Shown: positions 12,001 through 18,000 of the stretch, in pieces
How positions within the stretch are numbered: position 1 is the stretch's first letter
Layout: every line of letters begins with the position of its first letter
IMG/VR virus record: IMGVR_UViG_2721755660_000001
Source of the DNA: a virus
Lineage: Duplodnaviria > Heunggongvirae > Uroviricota > Caudoviricetes
Length of the DNA stretch: 64,000 nt
Strand: one strand, 5' to 3'
Program-made: the position numbers

Positions 12001-15000
12001 CAGCAATGACCGGCATTCACCATACGCATGTCTGCAAGGCCAAGAACGAGATGATTGCAATGAACATCATCGTTACCAACGGCCTGGCGATCGGGGTGAA
12101 TAAGGTGATTTCTGACTGGAATTTCAGCATTAGCCAAAATGGCAAATCATTAGCCGAAACAGCTAATGAAACATTAGCCAAGTCAGCTAATACCCATAAG
12201 CCAACTCAGCTAAACACAAAAGAAACTATTCAAAAGAAAGAAAGAAAAGATCCCCCTAAATCCCCCCAGGGGGAAAACTCACTCGCTCAGGAAGTGATGG
12301 ATTACTTCAACGAGCTAACGGGTAGTCGTTGTGCTGCGCTGGCACCTTTCGAGAAAGCTCTCTCCACGGTGAAGAGCAAAGACCAGTGCTACACCGCTGA
12401 AGAGCTGAAACTCGTTATCCGCTGGGCCCATGTGAACTGGGGTCACAGCTTCAAGCCAGAGAACCTGTGCCGTATGACCCGATTTGATGGATACCTGTCA
12501 GACGCCCTGATATGGGCTGATGGTCAGGGAAGCAACCCGGCAGCCTGTCCGCACGAAGAGATCATCAAGCTCTGGAATGAAAAATTCCCTTCGAAGGCTG
12601 TGTCGCTGCATGAGTGGAACCGCCGCCGTCCGGCCTATCGAGACCTGGAAGCTGTGTGGAACGGCAAAACCACCCAGGGCAACTGGCGAGAGCTGAAGCA
12701 CATGGGAATGGCCTTCGAGCTGATTAGCAAGTCTTCCCTGTTCGGCACCAGAGGCGATCAGCCATGGCTGACTCTCGACTGGATACTGAATCCGAAGAAC
12801 TGGGGATCTGTCTACGAGCAGGCTATCAACGAGCACCGTGAGCGCAAGGGAGTTACAGCATGAGCCGTTTTATCGATTTGTACGTTGAGCAGGCCGTCAT
12901 CGGCGGGATCATGCTCGCAGCGGGCCGCACAGACGGCGTTGACATGGCGACTGACGCGATTGAGGGGCTGACTGAGGACCACTTCACAGCAACGCCCCAT
13001 AAAGTGGCTCTGAAGTCCTATAAGCGACTCAACGAATCCGGTTCGAAGATAGACCTGCTGACGTTGACCAGCGACCTTGAACGGCTTGGCGCGCTGGAAA
13101 GTGCCGGGGGATTCGCTTACCTGGCTGAATGCAGCAAAAACACACCGTCGTTCGCGAACCTTGCCTCGTACTGCGAAAAGTTGCGGGAAATGCATCTCGG
13201 CCGCCGGATGACCCTGGCGCTACAGGTAGGGATCCAGAAGCTGTCCGAACCATCCAGTGAGGGTATCGCTGACATCATCGGCAACATACAGGCCGATATC
13301 TCTGGTATTGAGCACAGTGCGGACTATGGCACTGAGCACATCACCACCGGGATCGACATGTCGTTAGAGACTATCCAGTCGATTATCAGCGGCGATATCT
13401 GGAAGCACAAAACCGAGCTTGGCATGGCAACCATCGACAGCGCTTTTGGCGGGTTCAACAACACCGATTTCATCGTTGTCGGCGGGCGCCCGGGCATGGG
13501 GAAAACCATGTTCAGCACCACCGTGACCGAGACTGTCGGCCTGAAAAACAAAAAGCCTGTGCTGTTCTTCAGCCTGGAAATGCCAGTTGATCAGATCTCC
13601 GAACGTGTCGCGTTCCACCGGGCACGGGTGAGTAAAGAGGATTTACTCAGCAAGCAGAGCGACGTAATGGATGGTGCCTGGGGAAAGGTCGGCCACTGCA
13701 TGAAGGATTTCATCGAAGCCCCGATCTATATCAACGACAAGCCATCCCTCAGCGTTCATCAGGTGCGAGCGGAAGCCAGGCGAATGAGCAAGAAACTGGG
13801 TGGACTTGGTGTGGTCATTGTCGATTACCTCCAGAAGATGCGCATGTCTGACCCTGAGAACATGAACCGCAGCGTAGGGGAGATCGCCACCGGCCTGAAG
13901 AACCTGGCGAAAGAATTGCGTTGCCCGGTCATCGCACTGGCTCAGCTTAACCGTAAGGTCGAAGAACGTGCTAATAAGCGCCCGGTCGCAGCTGACCTCC
14001 GCGAGTCCGGTGTTATCGAGCAGGAAGCCGATGTGATTTTCATGATCTACCGGGATGAGAAATACAACCCGAACACCGAACTGAAAGGCATCACCGAAAT
14101 CATCTGTGTGAAGTCCCGCCATGCGCCGGGGGCAGAAAAGACCTACCACTTCAGCAGCCGCTACTCAGGCCTGGACCCGGTAGATTTCACCTACAGCGGC
14201 CAGATGCAACAGGAGGCTGACTATGAGTGCTAAGACGATGAAAGGCAAACAGGCAATTCTGCGTTATCTCGAAACGCACCGGACCTTCACCGCGAAGGAT
14301 GTGGCCACAGAGTGCGGCATGACCATCAACTGCATCACGAAGAACGCTATCGACCTGGAGCGGGCCCGCAAGATTGTCCGGGTGAGTAAGGTCTGGCGAA
14401 CAGTGACTTATCGCCAGGCGACGCCGGAAGAGCAGGCTGGTACCGCGCGCAGCTGCACCAACGGAATATTTCTGGAGTGCCGGAACAGTCCGGCCATGAA
14501 GCGAGTATTGATGGTTTGGGGGAGGGTAGGGGTATGAGTATTATTTACAAGAAAACAGTAACACCATCTGAAGATTTGGCCTGAGTACTATTCAGCCGTT
14601 CGCGCAGGACAGAAGCGTGCAGAGCTCAGATGGAATGACCGAGATTACCAGGCAGGCGACAATCTCGATCTGTGCGAGTGGGACCCGAACGAAGAAGCCT
14701 TTACCGGTGAATTCACCAAAGTCACCGTTACACATGTCGCTGAACTTGGTAACTGGATACCGGGTTATGTACTGCTGAGTAACGCTCTTTTATCGCCAGC
14801 AGTGGATGTGAAAACGACCTGATGCCTTGCCCATACTGCGATGGAAAGGCTGAATTTGATTATGACGACGATAACCTCAATTGGATATCTTGTAACGCGT
14901 GCGGAATCGCTGCACTTTATGATCATGAGAAGCCCGTGCTGACGGGCACAGAAAACAGTACGGGTGCAATAAATTAGTACGAAACAATTATATCAAGCTT

Positions 15001-18000
15001 TTCTCCAATGATTTTCAAAGAAGAGTAGATGGATTGGCCTGAAGGAGATGGATTACTGGAATATGAATTGTTGCCGCCTTCTAAGATGGAAGCTATTAAA
15101 TTTAGTTGGTGTGACGCTTCAATCACATCGCTGTAAACTGGAGTAAGGCCTATTTTTGAGAAAAAATTATAGAATGGGATTGCTTTCGATTTTGCAATTA
15201 AAAGACCTGATGACGCCTTTAGCTCATGTATTAATTCGCTATTTGGCTTAAAATTCATTATTTTACTTTGCTCGCGAAGTAAGAGTGACGAAATTCTTCC
15301 CAGATGCTCCTTGAACGAGATATACGTTTCCAATGCGCATTTGGTTATTATTTGACCTATGACGTAGACGGTCACACCAGTGATAATTGTAGTAAAAACA
15401 GTAAGCCACATAATCAGTTAACGCCTTTAGCTAAAATGCAATTATGTATCCTATAGCTCCAGTGATTTGTCCAGATAAATTGGGTGGTCATGGCACATCA
15501 TCGCCGCGACTATAAGAATACTTTGCTCATACCGTTCGCGCCGCCATGCTTCAGGGTGCCACGCAAGATAGCAACTCTCCGGTGATTCCGGATGGTTGGG
15601 TGATGGTTCAGAAGGAGCCAACGCCAGATATGCTTAATGCCGCCTGGGTGTCACATGGCATTTACCATGCATCTGCTTATCGTACGATGCTCGCAGCAGC
15701 TCCGCAGCAGGTGAAGTGACGAACAAGTTGACGAGAGTTACCATAGATATAAATCAAGGCCCCTAGGGGCCTTTTATTCTATGATAAACGGACTTTGTTT
15801 GAGAGTGACGCTATGAAGCCCAAGAAGCTAAATGCTGAGCAGCAATACAAATTAGACCTTGAGTTGGTCAAGAAGAAACCTGCGAACCGTACAGAGGCAA
15901 AAGCCCATTTGGCGGCGCAGTTACGGATCAGCAAGTACAAGGCGCAGAACTCATCAAAAATCCGCGCAGGCAGTTTCAGGGGGCGGAAGAAGGTGCATTT
16001 CAGTAAGGCCGAAGACGAGGCCAGGGCAGCACTAAATAAAGCCAATGCCATTAGATTTTCCGAAGGGGAGGTCGAATCCGTCGATACGGATCGAATCTCA
16101 GAAAGTAACAAACGCTGGCGCGGGAGAACTGCTGACTAATGTCTGACTGGAACATTGCAGCAAAGCCGCAGGAAGATCGCGATAAGGTTAACGTTGACCT
16201 GGCTGCCTCCGGAGTGGCGTACAAAGAGCGCCTGAATATGCCGGTTATCGCTGAGGTGGTGATGCGCGAGCAGCCAGAGCATTTGCGTGATTACTTCCTT
16301 GAGCGCCTGAAGTTTTATCGCGAGAAGTCGATAACTTTACCGAAAGTTAGCGATCCGTTTTACCTGAAACAGGAGGAAGGGAAGTGATTATTGATGAACA
16401 TTTTAAGGATAGAGTCTCGAGTCATCTATCTCAGAAAATAATCGAAGACGCATTAAATGGAAGGGGATTTTTCGCCCGAAATGTGTTGGAGTCCATTCGG
16501 CTTCTTGAGGGAATGAAGGTTGCCCCATCAACTTTAGCAATGCGTCATCAAGAGCGTGAATTAAAGGGTGCGTTGGCCGGATTTCATCATATACATGTTT
16601 CAGAGGATAATTTCACTCGAGCTTTCAATGCGTACAGGCAAAAAGGAGAAGCGCCTGAGAAAAATCCATCCGAGCCGGCTTTACAAGGCCGGGGCAATCG
16701 CAATGCTATTCAGATGTTTTTGGAGCAAAATGGAGTTAGTGCTAAAGATGCTTCGTTTGAAGAACTTATCATAAGATTCCAGGATCTTATTGAACAGATG
16801 GGAGAAGAAAATGCAAAAGAGCAAATTTCTCGTATTGCTGCTGAGCTATCTTGGAAACCGTTTAAGGGTAATGATGTAATTTCTGGAGACTGGCTAGTCT
16901 ATTGGGTGAGACAGGACGGTGTAAGATTTTATATCGATAGTTTTGAACACATCCCCGCAACCGATACAAAACTGCAGAATTCCACCGCAAATTCATTACA
17001 CGCCATTCTTCAAAGCATGGATACCGCCGTTTGATTTTCAAGAATCATCCAGCCATAATCATGTCATCGGAGCCTGAACAACTCCGGTGACTTCTGCGCA
17101 TTTAAGGGGACTTAAATGCGACCACAATCTGAACTCTTCACCTTGTCACAGATGCAGAAATGCACCTGCGATTTTCTACATTCTGCGGTTTCCAATAAGG
17201 AGGCCGTATGACTCTGCCAGTTGACGGAATCAAACTCCATCGAGGCAACTTCGCGGCCATCGGCCAGCAGATTCAGCCATTGCTGGATGCCGGGCAGTAC
17301 TTCCGCCTGCAGGTTAAGCCGTGGCGCGAGAAGCGCAGCCTGTCGCAGAACGCGCTCAGCCACATGTGGTACACGGAAATCAGCGATTACCTGATTAACT
17401 CCGGACGCACCGACGCGACTCCTGAGTGGGTTAAGCGCAACCTCAAAAAGACATATCTCGGCTGCGAAGAGGTGACCTACACCGACTTCATCACCGGCGA
17501 AAAAAACACTACATGGGAACCGCGACATACCGCCAATCTCGATACCGGGGAAATGCATATTTTCCTGGTAAAGGTTGAAATGTGGTGCGCTCAGTTCGGC
17601 CTTGCCCTGACTATCCCGAACGGCTGCGAGTACCAGCAGCTGCGCGATAAGCAGGAGGCCTGATGTCTACTCCACTTTCCCGCGTTATCAGTAACGAAAT
17701 CTTCCGCGTTCCGGCGCGCCGCCAGCGCAAGCCCGCGGTTAAGCCGTCCGAAATCCCGACCATGAAGGACTACACCGCCTGCCTGGTGGATCAGAAATGG
17801 CTGCGTCTCGCGGCGAGGAGAGCGCATGGCTAAGTTACCGCGCCGCAAGTGCGCCCATAAAGCCTGTCGCCAGTGGTTCCACCCGGTACGCGACGGGCAG
17901 GTAGTTTGCTCATTCGAGTGCGCCAGCGCTATCGGCAAAGAACAGACCGCAAAATCCCGTGAAGCCGCTCAGCAGAAGGAAGCGCAGCGTCAGCGCACCG

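What the first reader, a model, noticed from the sequence alone, without database searches (positions are those of the whole stretch)
14534..15411. AT-rich antisense membrane gene flanked by a broken DUF3850-like ORF and a Lar-like zinc-finger gene
Downstream of the helicase there is a DUF3850-like reading frame with no in-frame start (the only ATG is in another frame and stops after 16 codons). Next comes a 51-aa Cys4 protein reminiscent of Lar restriction-alleviation proteins, then on the opposite strand a 145-aa membrane-anchored ORF in a strikingly AT-rich patch. The mix of anti-restriction-like, degraded and antisense cargo suggests a recombination-prone accessory site.
Basis: partly seen in the sequence, partly recalled or inferred. 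Interest (0 to 1): 0.45.

Follow-up and report, generated by a model that had tools for sequence, protein, structure and literature searches.

The report
Antisense membrane-protein moron in prophage
This is the variable cargo slot between the replication and nin genes of an E. coli lambda-like prophage: it holds a DUF3850 gene broken by a 2-base deletion, a tiny Lar-like zinc-ribbon ORF, and a conserved but uncharacterised backwards-facing gene for a small membrane-anchored protein that recurs on phages, plasmids and defence islands and is a reasonable candidate for an exclusion or defence factor.

Summary
The window is a lambdoid E. coli prophage, and 14534-15411 lies in its ren-ninB accessory slot.

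1. The DUF3850/ASCH gene is a true pseudogene. Intact 96-aa homologues begin MSIIYKKTVT-HHLKI. The window lacks 2 nt of an ACACAC run at about 14561-14565. The ATG at 14534, which overlaps the ren stop, is therefore the real start, now out of frame.

2. The 51-aa Cys4 ORF resembles Lar only through its zinc ribbon. It scores below both curated cut-offs and is a near-orphan.

3. The 145-aa minus-strand ORF (GC 0.365) is a real gene.
- It matches phrog_7512 over its full length.
- dN/dS is about 0.07-0.14.
- A profile search finds 1142 representative sequences.
- It has no Pfam, NCBIfam or PADLOC match.
- RefSeq annotates only 94 aa of it.

In all 34 lambdoid viral contigs recovered it is antisense to the early-right operon. 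More distant members sit in ICEs, on plasmids (342 records), in a P2-like prophage, and beside BstA, PDC-S33, AbiH and type I restriction genes.

The model shows an N-terminal transmembrane helix followed by a four-helix bundle, predicted to be cytoplasmic.

Best reading: a self-transcribed moron that encodes an inner-membrane exclusion or defence factor. The anatomy is shown. The function is inferred.

The parts
14223..14537 (+). ren-like gene (104 aa). It forms the left edge of the accessory slot.
   Evidence: phrog_142 Ren-like, E 1.6e-33. RefSeq calls it 'protein ren'.
14534..14822 (+). DUF3850/ASCH pseudogene. The true start is ATG 14534. A 2-nt (AC) deletion at about 14561-14565 shifts the frame. 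The domain is then read from 14562 to the TGA at 14820-14822.
   Evidence: Pfam DUF3850, 79.7 bits. Intact homologues P0201 and P0202 are 96 aa and begin MSIIYKKTVTHHLKI. Alignment A3 shows the 2-nt gap. The deletion is shared by L001, L002, L006 and L007 and is absent from L050-L052.
14782..15607 (.). Mobile cassette that is nearly identical (a few substitutions across about 825 bp) in three otherwise diverged phages. It contains the 3' tail of DUF3850, the Lar-like ORF, the antisense gene, that gene's upstream region, and the start of the PDGW-motif ORF.
   Evidence: Alignments A3 and A4. L053 is about 85% identical to the window to the left of about 14782 and nearly identical across the cassette. 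Both L050 and L053 diverge to the right of about 15607.
14822..14977 (+). 51-aa Cys4 zinc-ribbon ORF (Lar-like, sub-threshold). Its ATG overlaps the DUF3850 stop (TGATG).
   Evidence: Pfam Lar_restr_allev 26.8 bits against a cut-off of 28.6. TIGR03655 19.1 bits against 39.6. Only two protein clusters were found among 5.8 billion sequences.
14932..14947 (-). Candidate weak terminator hairpin for the antisense gene: GCCCGU-CAGC-ACGGGC followed by UUCUCAU.
   Evidence: Read directly from the sequence. The hairpin appears in the minimum-free-energy fold. It was not called by the consensus scan, and the fold z-score is only -0.93, so it is unproven.
14974..15411 (-). 145-aa single-pass membrane protein of the phrog_7512 family. 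The transmembrane helix spans about residues 2-23 and is followed by a helical bundle with an invariant LLREQSK motif.
   Evidence: phrog_7512 match over residues 3-145, E 2.6e-37. Full-length homologues. 1142 representative sequences at E<=1e-3. dN/dS 0.07-0.14. AlphaFold2 pLDDT 79.
15412..15500 (-). Upstream region of the antisense gene. It carries a -10-like element, TATAGGAT (15448-15455), that is conserved in position.
   Evidence: In an upstream alignment of the 65-100% identical alleles, a TATAnnAT box lies about 44 nt before the ATG. The consensus sigma-70 scan found no strong promoter here.
15546..15719 (+). 57-aa ORF with a PDGW motif. It corresponds to the C-terminal module of the modular eae/Ea22/DUF551-type phage proteins and is preceded in frame by the linker motif RAAMLQGA.
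   Evidence: It matches only the C-terminal ends of phrog_12449, phrog_60 and phrog_5913. Frame translation. P0207 carries the same linker.
15756..15773 (.). G+C-rich palindromic terminator hairpin (AAGGCCCCTAGGGGCCTT) that closes the slot. It occupies the position of lambda tR2.
   Evidence: Terminator scan. In lambda the ren-ninB gap is only 73 nt. That lambda tR2 lies there is from memory.

Best explanation
The finding lies in the ren-ninB accessory slot of a lambdoid E. coli prophage. Modules are swapped into this slot by recombination.

Three things sit in it.
(a) A DUF3850/ASCH gene. Its genuine ATG (14534) is coupled to the ren stop. A 2-nt contraction of an ACACAC run threw the domain out of frame, so it is a pseudogene.
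(b) A 51-aa zinc-ribbon ORF that is Lar-like in fold only.
(c) A moron: an AT-rich gene that is most likely transcribed on its own, from the strand opposite to the pR early operon. It would therefore be made in the lysogen, when pR is repressed.

The moron's product is a 145-aa protein with one N-terminal transmembrane helix. Its roughly 120-residue four-helix bundle is predicted to face the cytoplasm.

I infer that it is a prophage- or MGE-borne exclusion or defence factor acting at the inner membrane. It could block incoming DNA or abort infection through the membrane.

Shown: the gene is real, the family exists, its orientation and position are conserved, the cassette is mobile, and the frameshift is real. 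Inferred: transcription in the lysogen, the membrane topology, and the defence or exclusion function. The confidence of 0.5 blends about 0.9 for the anatomical and evolutionary description with about 0.4 for the exclusion or defence function.
For: - Frameshift: intact homologues and the DNA alignment. ATGA-type gene coupling is typical of nin regions (PMC8022706).
- Real gene: full-length PHROG match; 24 close homologues and 1142 profile hits, nearly all 140-155 aa; dN/dS 0.07-0.14, with the transmembrane part the most conserved, and only synonymous differences among the near-identical alleles.
- Orientation and position: in all 34 IMG/VR loci the gene is antisense to the rep/nin/Q genes and lies between the replication genes and theta/ninB. 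The same holds in E. coli W619, Kosakonia and Cronobacter.
- Composition and mobility: GC 0.365 against 0.52-0.58 in the flanks. A near-identical 825-bp cassette sits in three phages with diverged flanks.
- Association with defence genes or mobile elements in all 7 distant members sampled:
  - inside an ICE transfer-gene cluster;
  - two genes from PDC-S73, an nSTAND3 protein;
  - directly after type I HsdR and next to an SLFN/AlbA_2-domain gene;
  - in a toxin-antitoxin-rich island;
  - 20 nt downstream of, and co-oriented with, a RelA_SpoT protein assigned to PDC-S33 in a lambdoid prophage;
  - in a P2-like prophage between gpD and the immunity genes;
  - near BrnTA and AbiH.
- BstA lies two genes downstream of the cassette in L050.
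- 342 plasmid records carry homologues.
- Structure: an N-terminal helix spanning residues 2-46 plus a helical bundle. There is no charged residue before the transmembrane helix, and K24, K34, R39, R46 and K50 follow it. By the positive-inside rule this puts the bundle in the cytoplasm.
Against: - There is no experimental or homology link to any known exclusion or defence protein. PADLOC, Pfam and NCBIfam give nothing. hhalign probability against P22 SieA and lambda SieB and RexB is below 1%.
- No consensus promoter was found upstream, and the terminator is weak. Independent transcription is therefore unproven.
- Guilt by association rests on only 7 sampled distant contexts and has no background control.
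- Accessory regions of mobile elements also carry non-defence cargo.
Confidence: 0.5

Rival explanations
1. The antisense membrane protein is a lysogenic-conversion or host-physiology factor unrelated to phage or plasmid exclusion. It might modulate a host membrane protein, stress tolerance or colonisation.
For: Morons often encode such factors; lambda bor and lom are examples (from memory). The protein has no catalytic or known defence motif. It also occurs on IncF plasmids near microcin and ccdAB genes, which are not defence loci.
Against: It recurs next to bona fide or candidate defence genes and in several different kinds of mobile element. That pattern fits a function aimed at other mobile elements better than one aimed at a particular host niche.
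Confidence: 0.25
2. The gene, or merely its antisense transcription, serves the phage's own life cycle. It could damp pR read-through into the nin/Q genes by convergent transcription, or it could encode a membrane regulator of lysis or lysogeny timing.
For: It lies antisense within the early-right operon in every lambdoid locus examined, just upstream of theta or ninB. P22 and lambda use antisense RNAs for comparable control, for example a23/anti-Q and oop, which are annotated.
Against: The protein itself is under strong purifying selection. Homologues also occur in non-lambdoid settings where no pR operon exists, and there they are co-oriented with their neighbours: phage D6, ICEs, plasmids and chromosomal islands.
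Confidence: 0.12
3. The DUF3850 gene is not dead. It is expressed from a non-canonical start (ATT 14574 or CTG 14568, as RefSeq annotates) or by +1 ribosomal frameshifting from ATG 14534.
For: RefSeq (PGAP) annotates it as an intact CDS with those starts. The domain is complete from profile position 2. The deleted allele persists in at least five E. coli genomes and two viral contigs.
Against: The two RefSeq records choose different non-canonical starts. No Shine-Dalgarno sequence precedes either one (sequence). Intact relatives use the ATG at 14534, which has a strong GGGAGGG upstream. The carriers are near-identical prophage copies, so persistence may only reflect recent ancestry.
Confidence: 0.1
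4. The 145-aa ORF is a chance open frame in degraded AT-rich DNA.
For: RefSeq calls only a 94-aa piece of it. There is no Pfam family.
Against: Full-length homologues exist down to 42% identity. There are 1142 profile hits. dN/dS is well below 1 and the N-terminal 51 codons are the most conserved part.
Confidence: 0.01

Closest known systems
Lambdoid 'morons' (Hendrix/Juhala concept), e.g. the P22 ant moron with sieA, and lambda bor and lom
   Same: It is an extra gene inserted into a phage operon. It is present in some relatives and absent in others. Its base composition differs from its surroundings and its orientation is opposite. It is presumed to be expressed from the prophage.
   Different: Its promoter and terminator are not demonstrated here. 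Its position, the ren-ninB slot of the early-right operon, is not one of the classical moron sites. The family's function is unknown.
SieB of lambda and P22 (an exclusion gene embedded antisense in the early-left operon) and SieA of P22 (a 164-aa inner-membrane exclusion protein)
   Same: Like sieB, it is a small gene lying antisense inside an early operon. Like SieA, it has an N-terminal transmembrane helix followed by a charged helical segment (alignment).
   Different: There is no detectable homology (hhalign probability below 1%). It lies in the right operon rather than the left. No exclusion phenotype is known.
Lar/RalR restriction-alleviation proteins (PF14354, TIGR03655)
   Same: The 51-aa ORF has a CxxC...CxxC zinc ribbon that aligns with the N-terminal part of both Lar models. 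It also lies in a prophage early region.
   Different: It scores below both curated cut-offs. It is shorter than the model, and its C-terminal 17 residues are unmatched. It is a near-orphan. Function was not tested.
DUF3850 (PF12961), an ASCH-like small domain common in phages; phrog_986 annotates such proteins as 'RNA-binding protein'
   Same: The domain is complete, scores well above the cut-off, and is 97% identical to an intact 96-aa homologue.
   Different: This allele carries a 2-nt deletion in codon 10/11, which separates the start codon from the domain.
Entry-exclusion proteins of conjugative elements, e.g. F TraS and SXT Eex (small inner-membrane proteins; recalled from memory)
   Same: The size class and membrane location are similar. 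One family member sits inside an ICE transfer-gene cluster. Many homologues lie on conjugative plasmids.
   Different: No sequence comparison was made and no functional data exist. On the IncF plasmid examined, the homologue lies in an accessory region and not in the tra operon.

Membership tests
DUF3850 (Pfam PF12961) | Domain score at or above the gathering threshold | tested here: met
   79.7 bits against a cut-off of 22.9, covering profile positions 2-76 of 77.
DUF3850 (Pfam PF12961) | Intact reading frame joined to a start codon, as in the homologues | tested here: not met
   A 2-nt deletion relative to P0201/L050 puts ATG 14534 in another frame.
Lar restriction-alleviation family (PF14354 / TIGR03655) | Score at or above the curated cut-off of the family model | tested here: not met
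   PF14354: 26.8 against 28.6 bits. TIGR03655: 19.1 against 39.6 bits.
Lar restriction-alleviation family (PF14354 / TIGR03655) | Cys4 zinc ribbon | tested here: met
   C3-x2-C6 ... C25-x2-C28 in the translation.
Lar restriction-alleviation family (PF14354 / TIGR03655) | Alleviates type I restriction | not testable with these tools
   This needs an in vivo restriction assay.
PHROG 7512 (unknown function) | Full-length profile match | tested here: met
   E 2.6e-37, residues 3-145 matched to profile positions 3-139 of 141.
Moron (independently expressed insert in a phage operon) | Present in some related phages and absent in others at the same position | tested here: met
   Lambda has only 73 nt between ren and ninB. 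This allele occurs in just 5 of 5426 E. coli genomes. The slot's content varies between phages.
Moron (independently expressed insert in a phage operon) | Base composition distinct from the flanks | tested here: met
   The CDS has GC 0.365, against 0.52-0.58 in the flanks.
Moron (independently expressed insert in a phage operon) | Own promoter and terminator | tested here: inconclusive
   A -10-like box about 44 nt upstream is conserved in position, but the scan found no consensus promoter. The downstream hairpin has a weak U-tract.
Known superinfection-exclusion proteins (P22 SieA, lambda SieB, lambda RexB) | Detectable sequence or profile homology | tested here: not met
   hhalign probabilities are 0.65%, 0.08% and 0.61%.
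Catalogued anti-phage defence systems (PADLOC-DB v2) | Match to any defence-protein model | tested here: not met
   No hit for the window protein. Among 66 family members there are only scattered hits at E>0.004.

The most novel reading that the evidence does not exclude
The phrog_7512 family is a new single-gene exclusion or anti-phage system. It comprises about 145-aa proteins with a single N-terminal transmembrane helix followed by a helical bundle. It is spread over lambdoid and P2-like prophages, phage-plasmids, IncF plasmids, ICEs and defence islands. It would act at the cytoplasmic face of the inner membrane, either blocking entry of foreign DNA or aborting infection. In lambdoid phages it is wired antisense to pR, so that it is made only in the lysogen.
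Probability: 0.35. Interest if true: 0.6.

Novelty: new member of a known kind. Interest (0 to 1): 0.38.

Why it matters
The region itself is ordinary prophage mosaicism. The value lies in three concrete outputs.

1. It gives a clean explanation for the 'start-less' DUF3850 gene. A 2-nt repeat contraction broke it, and RefSeq papers over this with ATT or CTG starts.

2. It corrects an annotation. The membrane protein is 145 aa, not 94 aa.

3. It identifies a sizeable, unnamed protein family. A profile search finds 1142 representative sequences, and 342 plasmid records carry homologues. The family is always antisense in the ren-ninB slot of lambdoid prophages and repeatedly lies next to defence genes.

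The family is therefore a cheap candidate for a new exclusion or defence gene: one gene of 438 bp to clone and test. The result also marks the ren-ninB slot as a defence-cargo site, since BstA and PDC-S33 occur in it in related phages.

Tried and rejected
- Pfam, NCBIfam and PADLOC scans of the window protein and of 66 family members gave no family.
- The genome-contig scan with the family alignment returned 47 pattern matches, but none was confirmed. Genomic contexts were therefore taken from IMG/VR and from exact-protein look-ups.
- I tested whether the Lar-like ORF is a conserved partner of the membrane gene. It is not. It accompanies only the near-identical alleles. In other alleles the convergent neighbour is usually a DUF551/eae-type gene or something else.
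- The consensus promoter scan found nothing upstream of the gene. The only minus-strand hit lies inside the CDS.
- Profile comparison with SieA, SieB and RexB was negative.
- Literature searches by accession numbers, PHROG id, nin region plus moron, defence hotspot plus lambdoid, and DUF3850 plus phage found nothing on this family. The DefensePredictor supplements do not list the homologues' accessions.
- Rfam finds no known RNA in 14200-16200.
- The chance-ORF and sequencing-error explanations are rejected. The same deletion occurs in independent assemblies.

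
Full report
**Setting**

The window carries a lambdoid prophage of E. coli. The gene order around the finding is as follows.

| Feature | Coordinates |
|---|---|
| YdaT-like gene | 10983-11549 |
| Replication initiator | 11772-12863 |
| DnaB-type helicase | 12860-14233 |
| ren | 14223-14537 |
| The finding | 14534-15411 |
| 57-aa ORF | 15546-15719 |
| Terminator hairpin | 15756-15773 |
| 114-aa ORF | 15795-16139 |
| DNA polymerase III theta homologue | 16139-16387 |
| 216-aa ORF | 16384-17034 |
| ninB | 17208-17663 |
| ninE | 17663-17833 |
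| ninG | 17826-18437 |
| Q | 18927-19616 |

In phage lambda, ren and ninB are only 73 nt apart. The finding therefore sits in an expanded ren-ninB accessory slot. Only 5 of 5426 complete E. coli genomes carry this version of the slot.

**Observation check**

- The ATG at 14534 overlaps the ren stop (gtATGA) and opens a 16-codon frame, MSIIYKKTVTPSEDLA*.
- The DUF3850 domain is in the +1 frame at 14562-14822, immediately after an in-frame TAA.
- A 51-aa Cys4 ORF follows at 14822-14977.
- A 145-aa ORF lies on the minus strand at 14974-15411.
- GC falls to 0.36-0.37 there, against 0.52-0.58 on either side.

**The DUF3850 frame is a frameshifted pseudogene**

The translated frame matches Pfam DUF3850 over profile positions 2-76 of 77 (79.7 bits against a cut-off of 22.9). 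It also matches ASCH more weakly.

A protein search found intact 96-aa homologues.
- P0201 is 97% identical and begins MSIIYKKTVT-HHLKIRPEYY.
- P0202 is 86% identical and begins MSTITKEPVT-HNLKIWPEYF.

The N-terminal ten residues of P0201 are exactly the first ten codons of the window's short ATG frame. The rest of P0201 corresponds to the window's DUF3850 frame.

The DNA alignment with the contig that encodes P0201 (L050) shows a single difference at the junction. L050 reads CAGTAACACACCATCTG and the window reads CAGTA--ACACCATCTG. This is the loss of one AC unit from an ACACAC run at about 14561-14565.

The deleted form is present in the window, in two RefSeq genomes and in two IMG/VR contigs. 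The intact form is present in three other contigs. The deletion is therefore real and not a sequencing error.

RefSeq annotates this allele as an intact CDS, but it uses ATT at 14574 in one genome and CTG at 14568 in another. Neither start has a ribosome-binding site, whereas ATG 14534 has GGGAGGG upstream of it. ATGA-type coupling of adjacent genes is the norm in nin regions (PMC8022706). I conclude that the gene is a pseudogene, with a small residual chance of low-level expression.

**The Lar-like ORF**

The 51-aa ORF, MPCPYCDGKAEFDYDDDNLNWISCNACGIAALYDHEKPVLTGTENSTGAIN, has a CxxC...CxxC zinc ribbon. Only residues 2-34 align with the Lar models.
- Pfam PF14354 gives 26.8 bits against a gathering score of 28.6.
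- NCBIfam TIGR03655 gives 19.1 bits against 39.6.

Among 5.8 billion proteins it has only itself and one 96%-identical variant as relatives. The two differences from that variant are both non-synonymous. 'Lar-like' therefore describes the fold. Family membership failed the test, and restriction alleviation is untested.

**The antisense gene is real and belongs to a large unnamed family**

- The 145-aa product matches phrog_7512 (function unknown) over its whole length, E 2.6e-37.
- Full-length homologues of 141-153 aa occur in Escherichia, Citrobacter, Klebsiella and Kosakonia. They share invariant positions, including the motif LLREQSK.
- A profile search of 1.84 billion representative proteins found 1142 hits at E<=1e-3 and 315 at E<=1e-10. 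Nearly all are stand-alone proteins of 140-155 aa.
- None of 66 diverse members matches any Pfam, NCBIfam or PADLOC model.
- Pairwise dN/dS is 0.07-0.14 wherever dS is not saturated.
- The N-terminal 51 codons are the most conserved part, and the near-identical alleles differ only at synonymous sites.
- RefSeq's 94-aa annotation (14974-15258) is therefore truncated. The gene is 14974-15411.

**Structure**

AlphaFold2, run with the family alignment, gives mean pLDDT 79 and pTM 0.63. The model has a long helix over residues 2-46, whose first 22 or so residues are hydrophobic. Further helices span 58-77, 81-86, 93-112 and 128-139, and residues 115-123 form a disordered Ser/Pro-rich loop.

There is no charged residue before the hydrophobic segment, while K24, K34, R39, R46 and K50 follow it. 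By the positive-inside rule I infer an N-out, C-in topology, which places the bundle in the cytoplasm.

**Position and orientation are conserved**

All 34 IMG/VR loci recovered with the family alignment are lambdoid contigs. In every one the gene is on the strand opposite to the replication, nin and Q genes, and it lies between the replication/ren genes and theta or ninB.

The same arrangement is seen in:
- E. coli W619;
- Kosakonia;
- Cronobacter.

In many Klebsiella-type loci its start codon lies only about 75 nt from the start codon of the divergently oriented theta gene.

A TATAnnAT box about 44 nt upstream of the ATG is conserved in position among the 65-100% identical alleles. It lies at 15448-15455 in the window. 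However, the consensus scan finds no strong sigma-70 promoter.

Downstream of the gene, a GCCCGU/ACGGGC hairpin (14932-14947) is followed by UUCUCAU. This is at best a weak terminator. Independent transcription in the lysogen is therefore a reasonable inference but has not been shown.

**A mobile cassette and a recombination-prone slot**

Compared with two other phages that have different replication modules (L050, L053), the window is nearly identical (a few substitutions) from about 14782 to about 15607. The left end falls in the last codons of DUF3850. The right end falls in the PDGWVMV motif of the next ORF. Flanking DNA is about 85% identical or unalignable.

To the left, homology to most other lambdoid prophages stops at 14537-14552, just after the ren stop.

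The 57-aa ORF at 15546-15719 matches only the C-terminal ends of longer eae/Ea22/DUF551-type PHROGs. It is preceded in frame by RAAMLQGA, a linker also found inside longer DUF3850 fusion proteins such as P0207.

The Lar-like ORF accompanies the membrane gene only within this cassette. In other alleles the convergent neighbour differs. The two are therefore not a conserved pair.

**What the family keeps company with**

All seven distant members sampled lie in accessory or defence contexts.

| Context |
|---|
| Inside the transfer-gene cluster of a Salmonella ICE |
| Two genes from an nSTAND3 protein matching PADLOC PDC-S73 |
| Immediately after type I HsdR, next to an SLFN/AlbA_2-domain gene |
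| In an island with HicA, RES-Xre, PIN-Phd and PemK |
| In a Cronobacter lambdoid prophage, 20 nt downstream of and co-oriented with a RelA_SpoT protein matching PDC-S33 (E 1.5e-54), both antisense between P and the nin genes |
| In a P2-like prophage, between gpD and the immunity genes |
| Near BrnT/BrnA and AbiH |

Further observations point the same way.
- In L050 the abortive-infection gene BstA (E 1e-119) lies two genes downstream of the cassette, in the same slot.
- Homologues are on 342 plasmid records, of which 318 are E. coli and 261 are predicted to be conjugative. These include phage-plasmids and IncF plasmids.
- A homologue lies in P1-like phage D6 between humD and phd/doc.

**Most likely mechanism**

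Shown:
- a conserved, selected, membrane-anchored protein;
- encoded by an AT-rich, horizontally mobile cassette;
- always antisense to the pR operon in lambdoid prophages.

Inferred: it is transcribed from its own weak promoter while pR is repressed, so it is made in the lysogen. It inserts N-out, C-in in the inner membrane. There it acts against incoming mobile DNA, either by blocking DNA entry at the membrane (exclusion) or by a membrane-based abortive response.

I put about 0.9 on the anatomical and evolutionary description and about 0.4 on the exclusion or defence function. The data cannot separate exclusion from abortive infection.

Rivals:
- a host-physiology conversion factor (0.25);
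- a role in the phage's own timing, through the protein or through convergent transcription (0.12);
- residual expression of DUF3850 (0.1, an independent issue);
- a chance ORF (refuted).

**Comparison with known systems and verdict**

Functionally, the closest analogues are the classical lambdoid morons and the exclusion genes embedded antisense in early operons: sieB in lambda and P22, and the membrane protein SieA in P22. Membership of those families was tested and not met.

The DUF3850 domain meets its family threshold but fails the intact-gene criterion. The Lar label fails both curated thresholds.

The finding is ordinary prophage mosaicism that contains a new member of a known kind of element, a moron encoding a small membrane protein. 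The family itself is uncharacterised and unexpectedly widespread.

Interest is moderate (0.38). A specialist would not be surprised by it, but it offers a cheap candidate to test for a new single-gene exclusion or defence function, together with two annotation corrections.

Noticed in passing
window 14974-15258 versus 14974-15411: RefSeq (WP_123282430.1) annotates only the C-terminal 94 aa of the antisense gene. That omits the transmembrane helix, which is the most conserved part of the family.
   Followed up: yes
window 14568 / 14574: Two RefSeq genomes with the same DNA annotate the frameshifted DUF3850 gene with different non-canonical starts: CTG in strain M10 and ATT in strain 154. This hides a 2-nt deletion.
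   Followed up: yes
window 15546-15719 and 15507-15545: A 57-aa ORF with a PDGW motif is preceded in frame by the linker RAAMLQGA. It looks like the C-terminal module of modular eae/Ea22/DUF551-type proteins, and a recombination breakpoint falls at about 15607. In L050 the same ATG opens an 83-aa ORF with a different C-terminus.
   Followed up: partly
window 15756-15773: A perfect G+C-rich palindromic hairpin (AAGGCCCCTAGGGGCCTT) with a T-run on the plus strand. It is probably the counterpart of lambda tR2, and it would also stop leftward transcription from entering the antisense gene's upstream region.
   Followed up: no
window 16139-16387 and 16384-17034: A DNA polymerase III theta (HOT-like) homologue (Pfam E 3.5e-34) lies in the nin region. 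It is followed by a 216-aa ORF with no hit in Pfam, PHROGs or NCBIfam and only a marginal PADLOC hit (E 0.015, Cas10_Id), in a second AT-rich stretch (GC 0.40-0.45).
   Followed up: no
window 19632-19705 (+): An Rfam isrJ match (54.8 bits) lies immediately after the Q antiterminator gene, where GC also drops to about 0.37. It is probably the late-promoter leader RNA region.
   Followed up: no
window 58718-58805 (-) and 58830-58905 (-): Rfam matches to C4 antisense RNA (78.9 bits) and isrK (64.8 bits). They point to a second mobile element or immunity region beyond the lambdoid prophage.
   Followed up: no
window 46524-47744 (-) and 47858-47932 (-): An ORF of integrase-like size lies next to tRNA-Arg(CCT). 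This is likely the attachment end of the prophage.
   Followed up: no
L060 3710-5471 (Cronobacter lambdoid prophage): A family member lies 20 nt downstream of, and is co-oriented with, a 423-aa RelA_SpoT protein that matches PADLOC candidate PDC-S33. Both are antisense between P and the nin genes, so they may form a two-gene operon.
   Followed up: partly
L050 7359-8285: The abortive-infection gene BstA (PADLOC E 1e-119) occupies the same ren-ninB slot two genes downstream of the cassette. This suggests that the slot is a defence-cargo site in lambdoid prophages.
   Followed up: partly
L042 / L043 (Kosakonia cowanii chromosome): The same antisense gene, with about 360 nt of upstream DNA, is retained in what looks like a rearranged prophage remnant. 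There it sits between small early genes beside an integrase on one side and tail/baseplate genes on the other.
   Followed up: no
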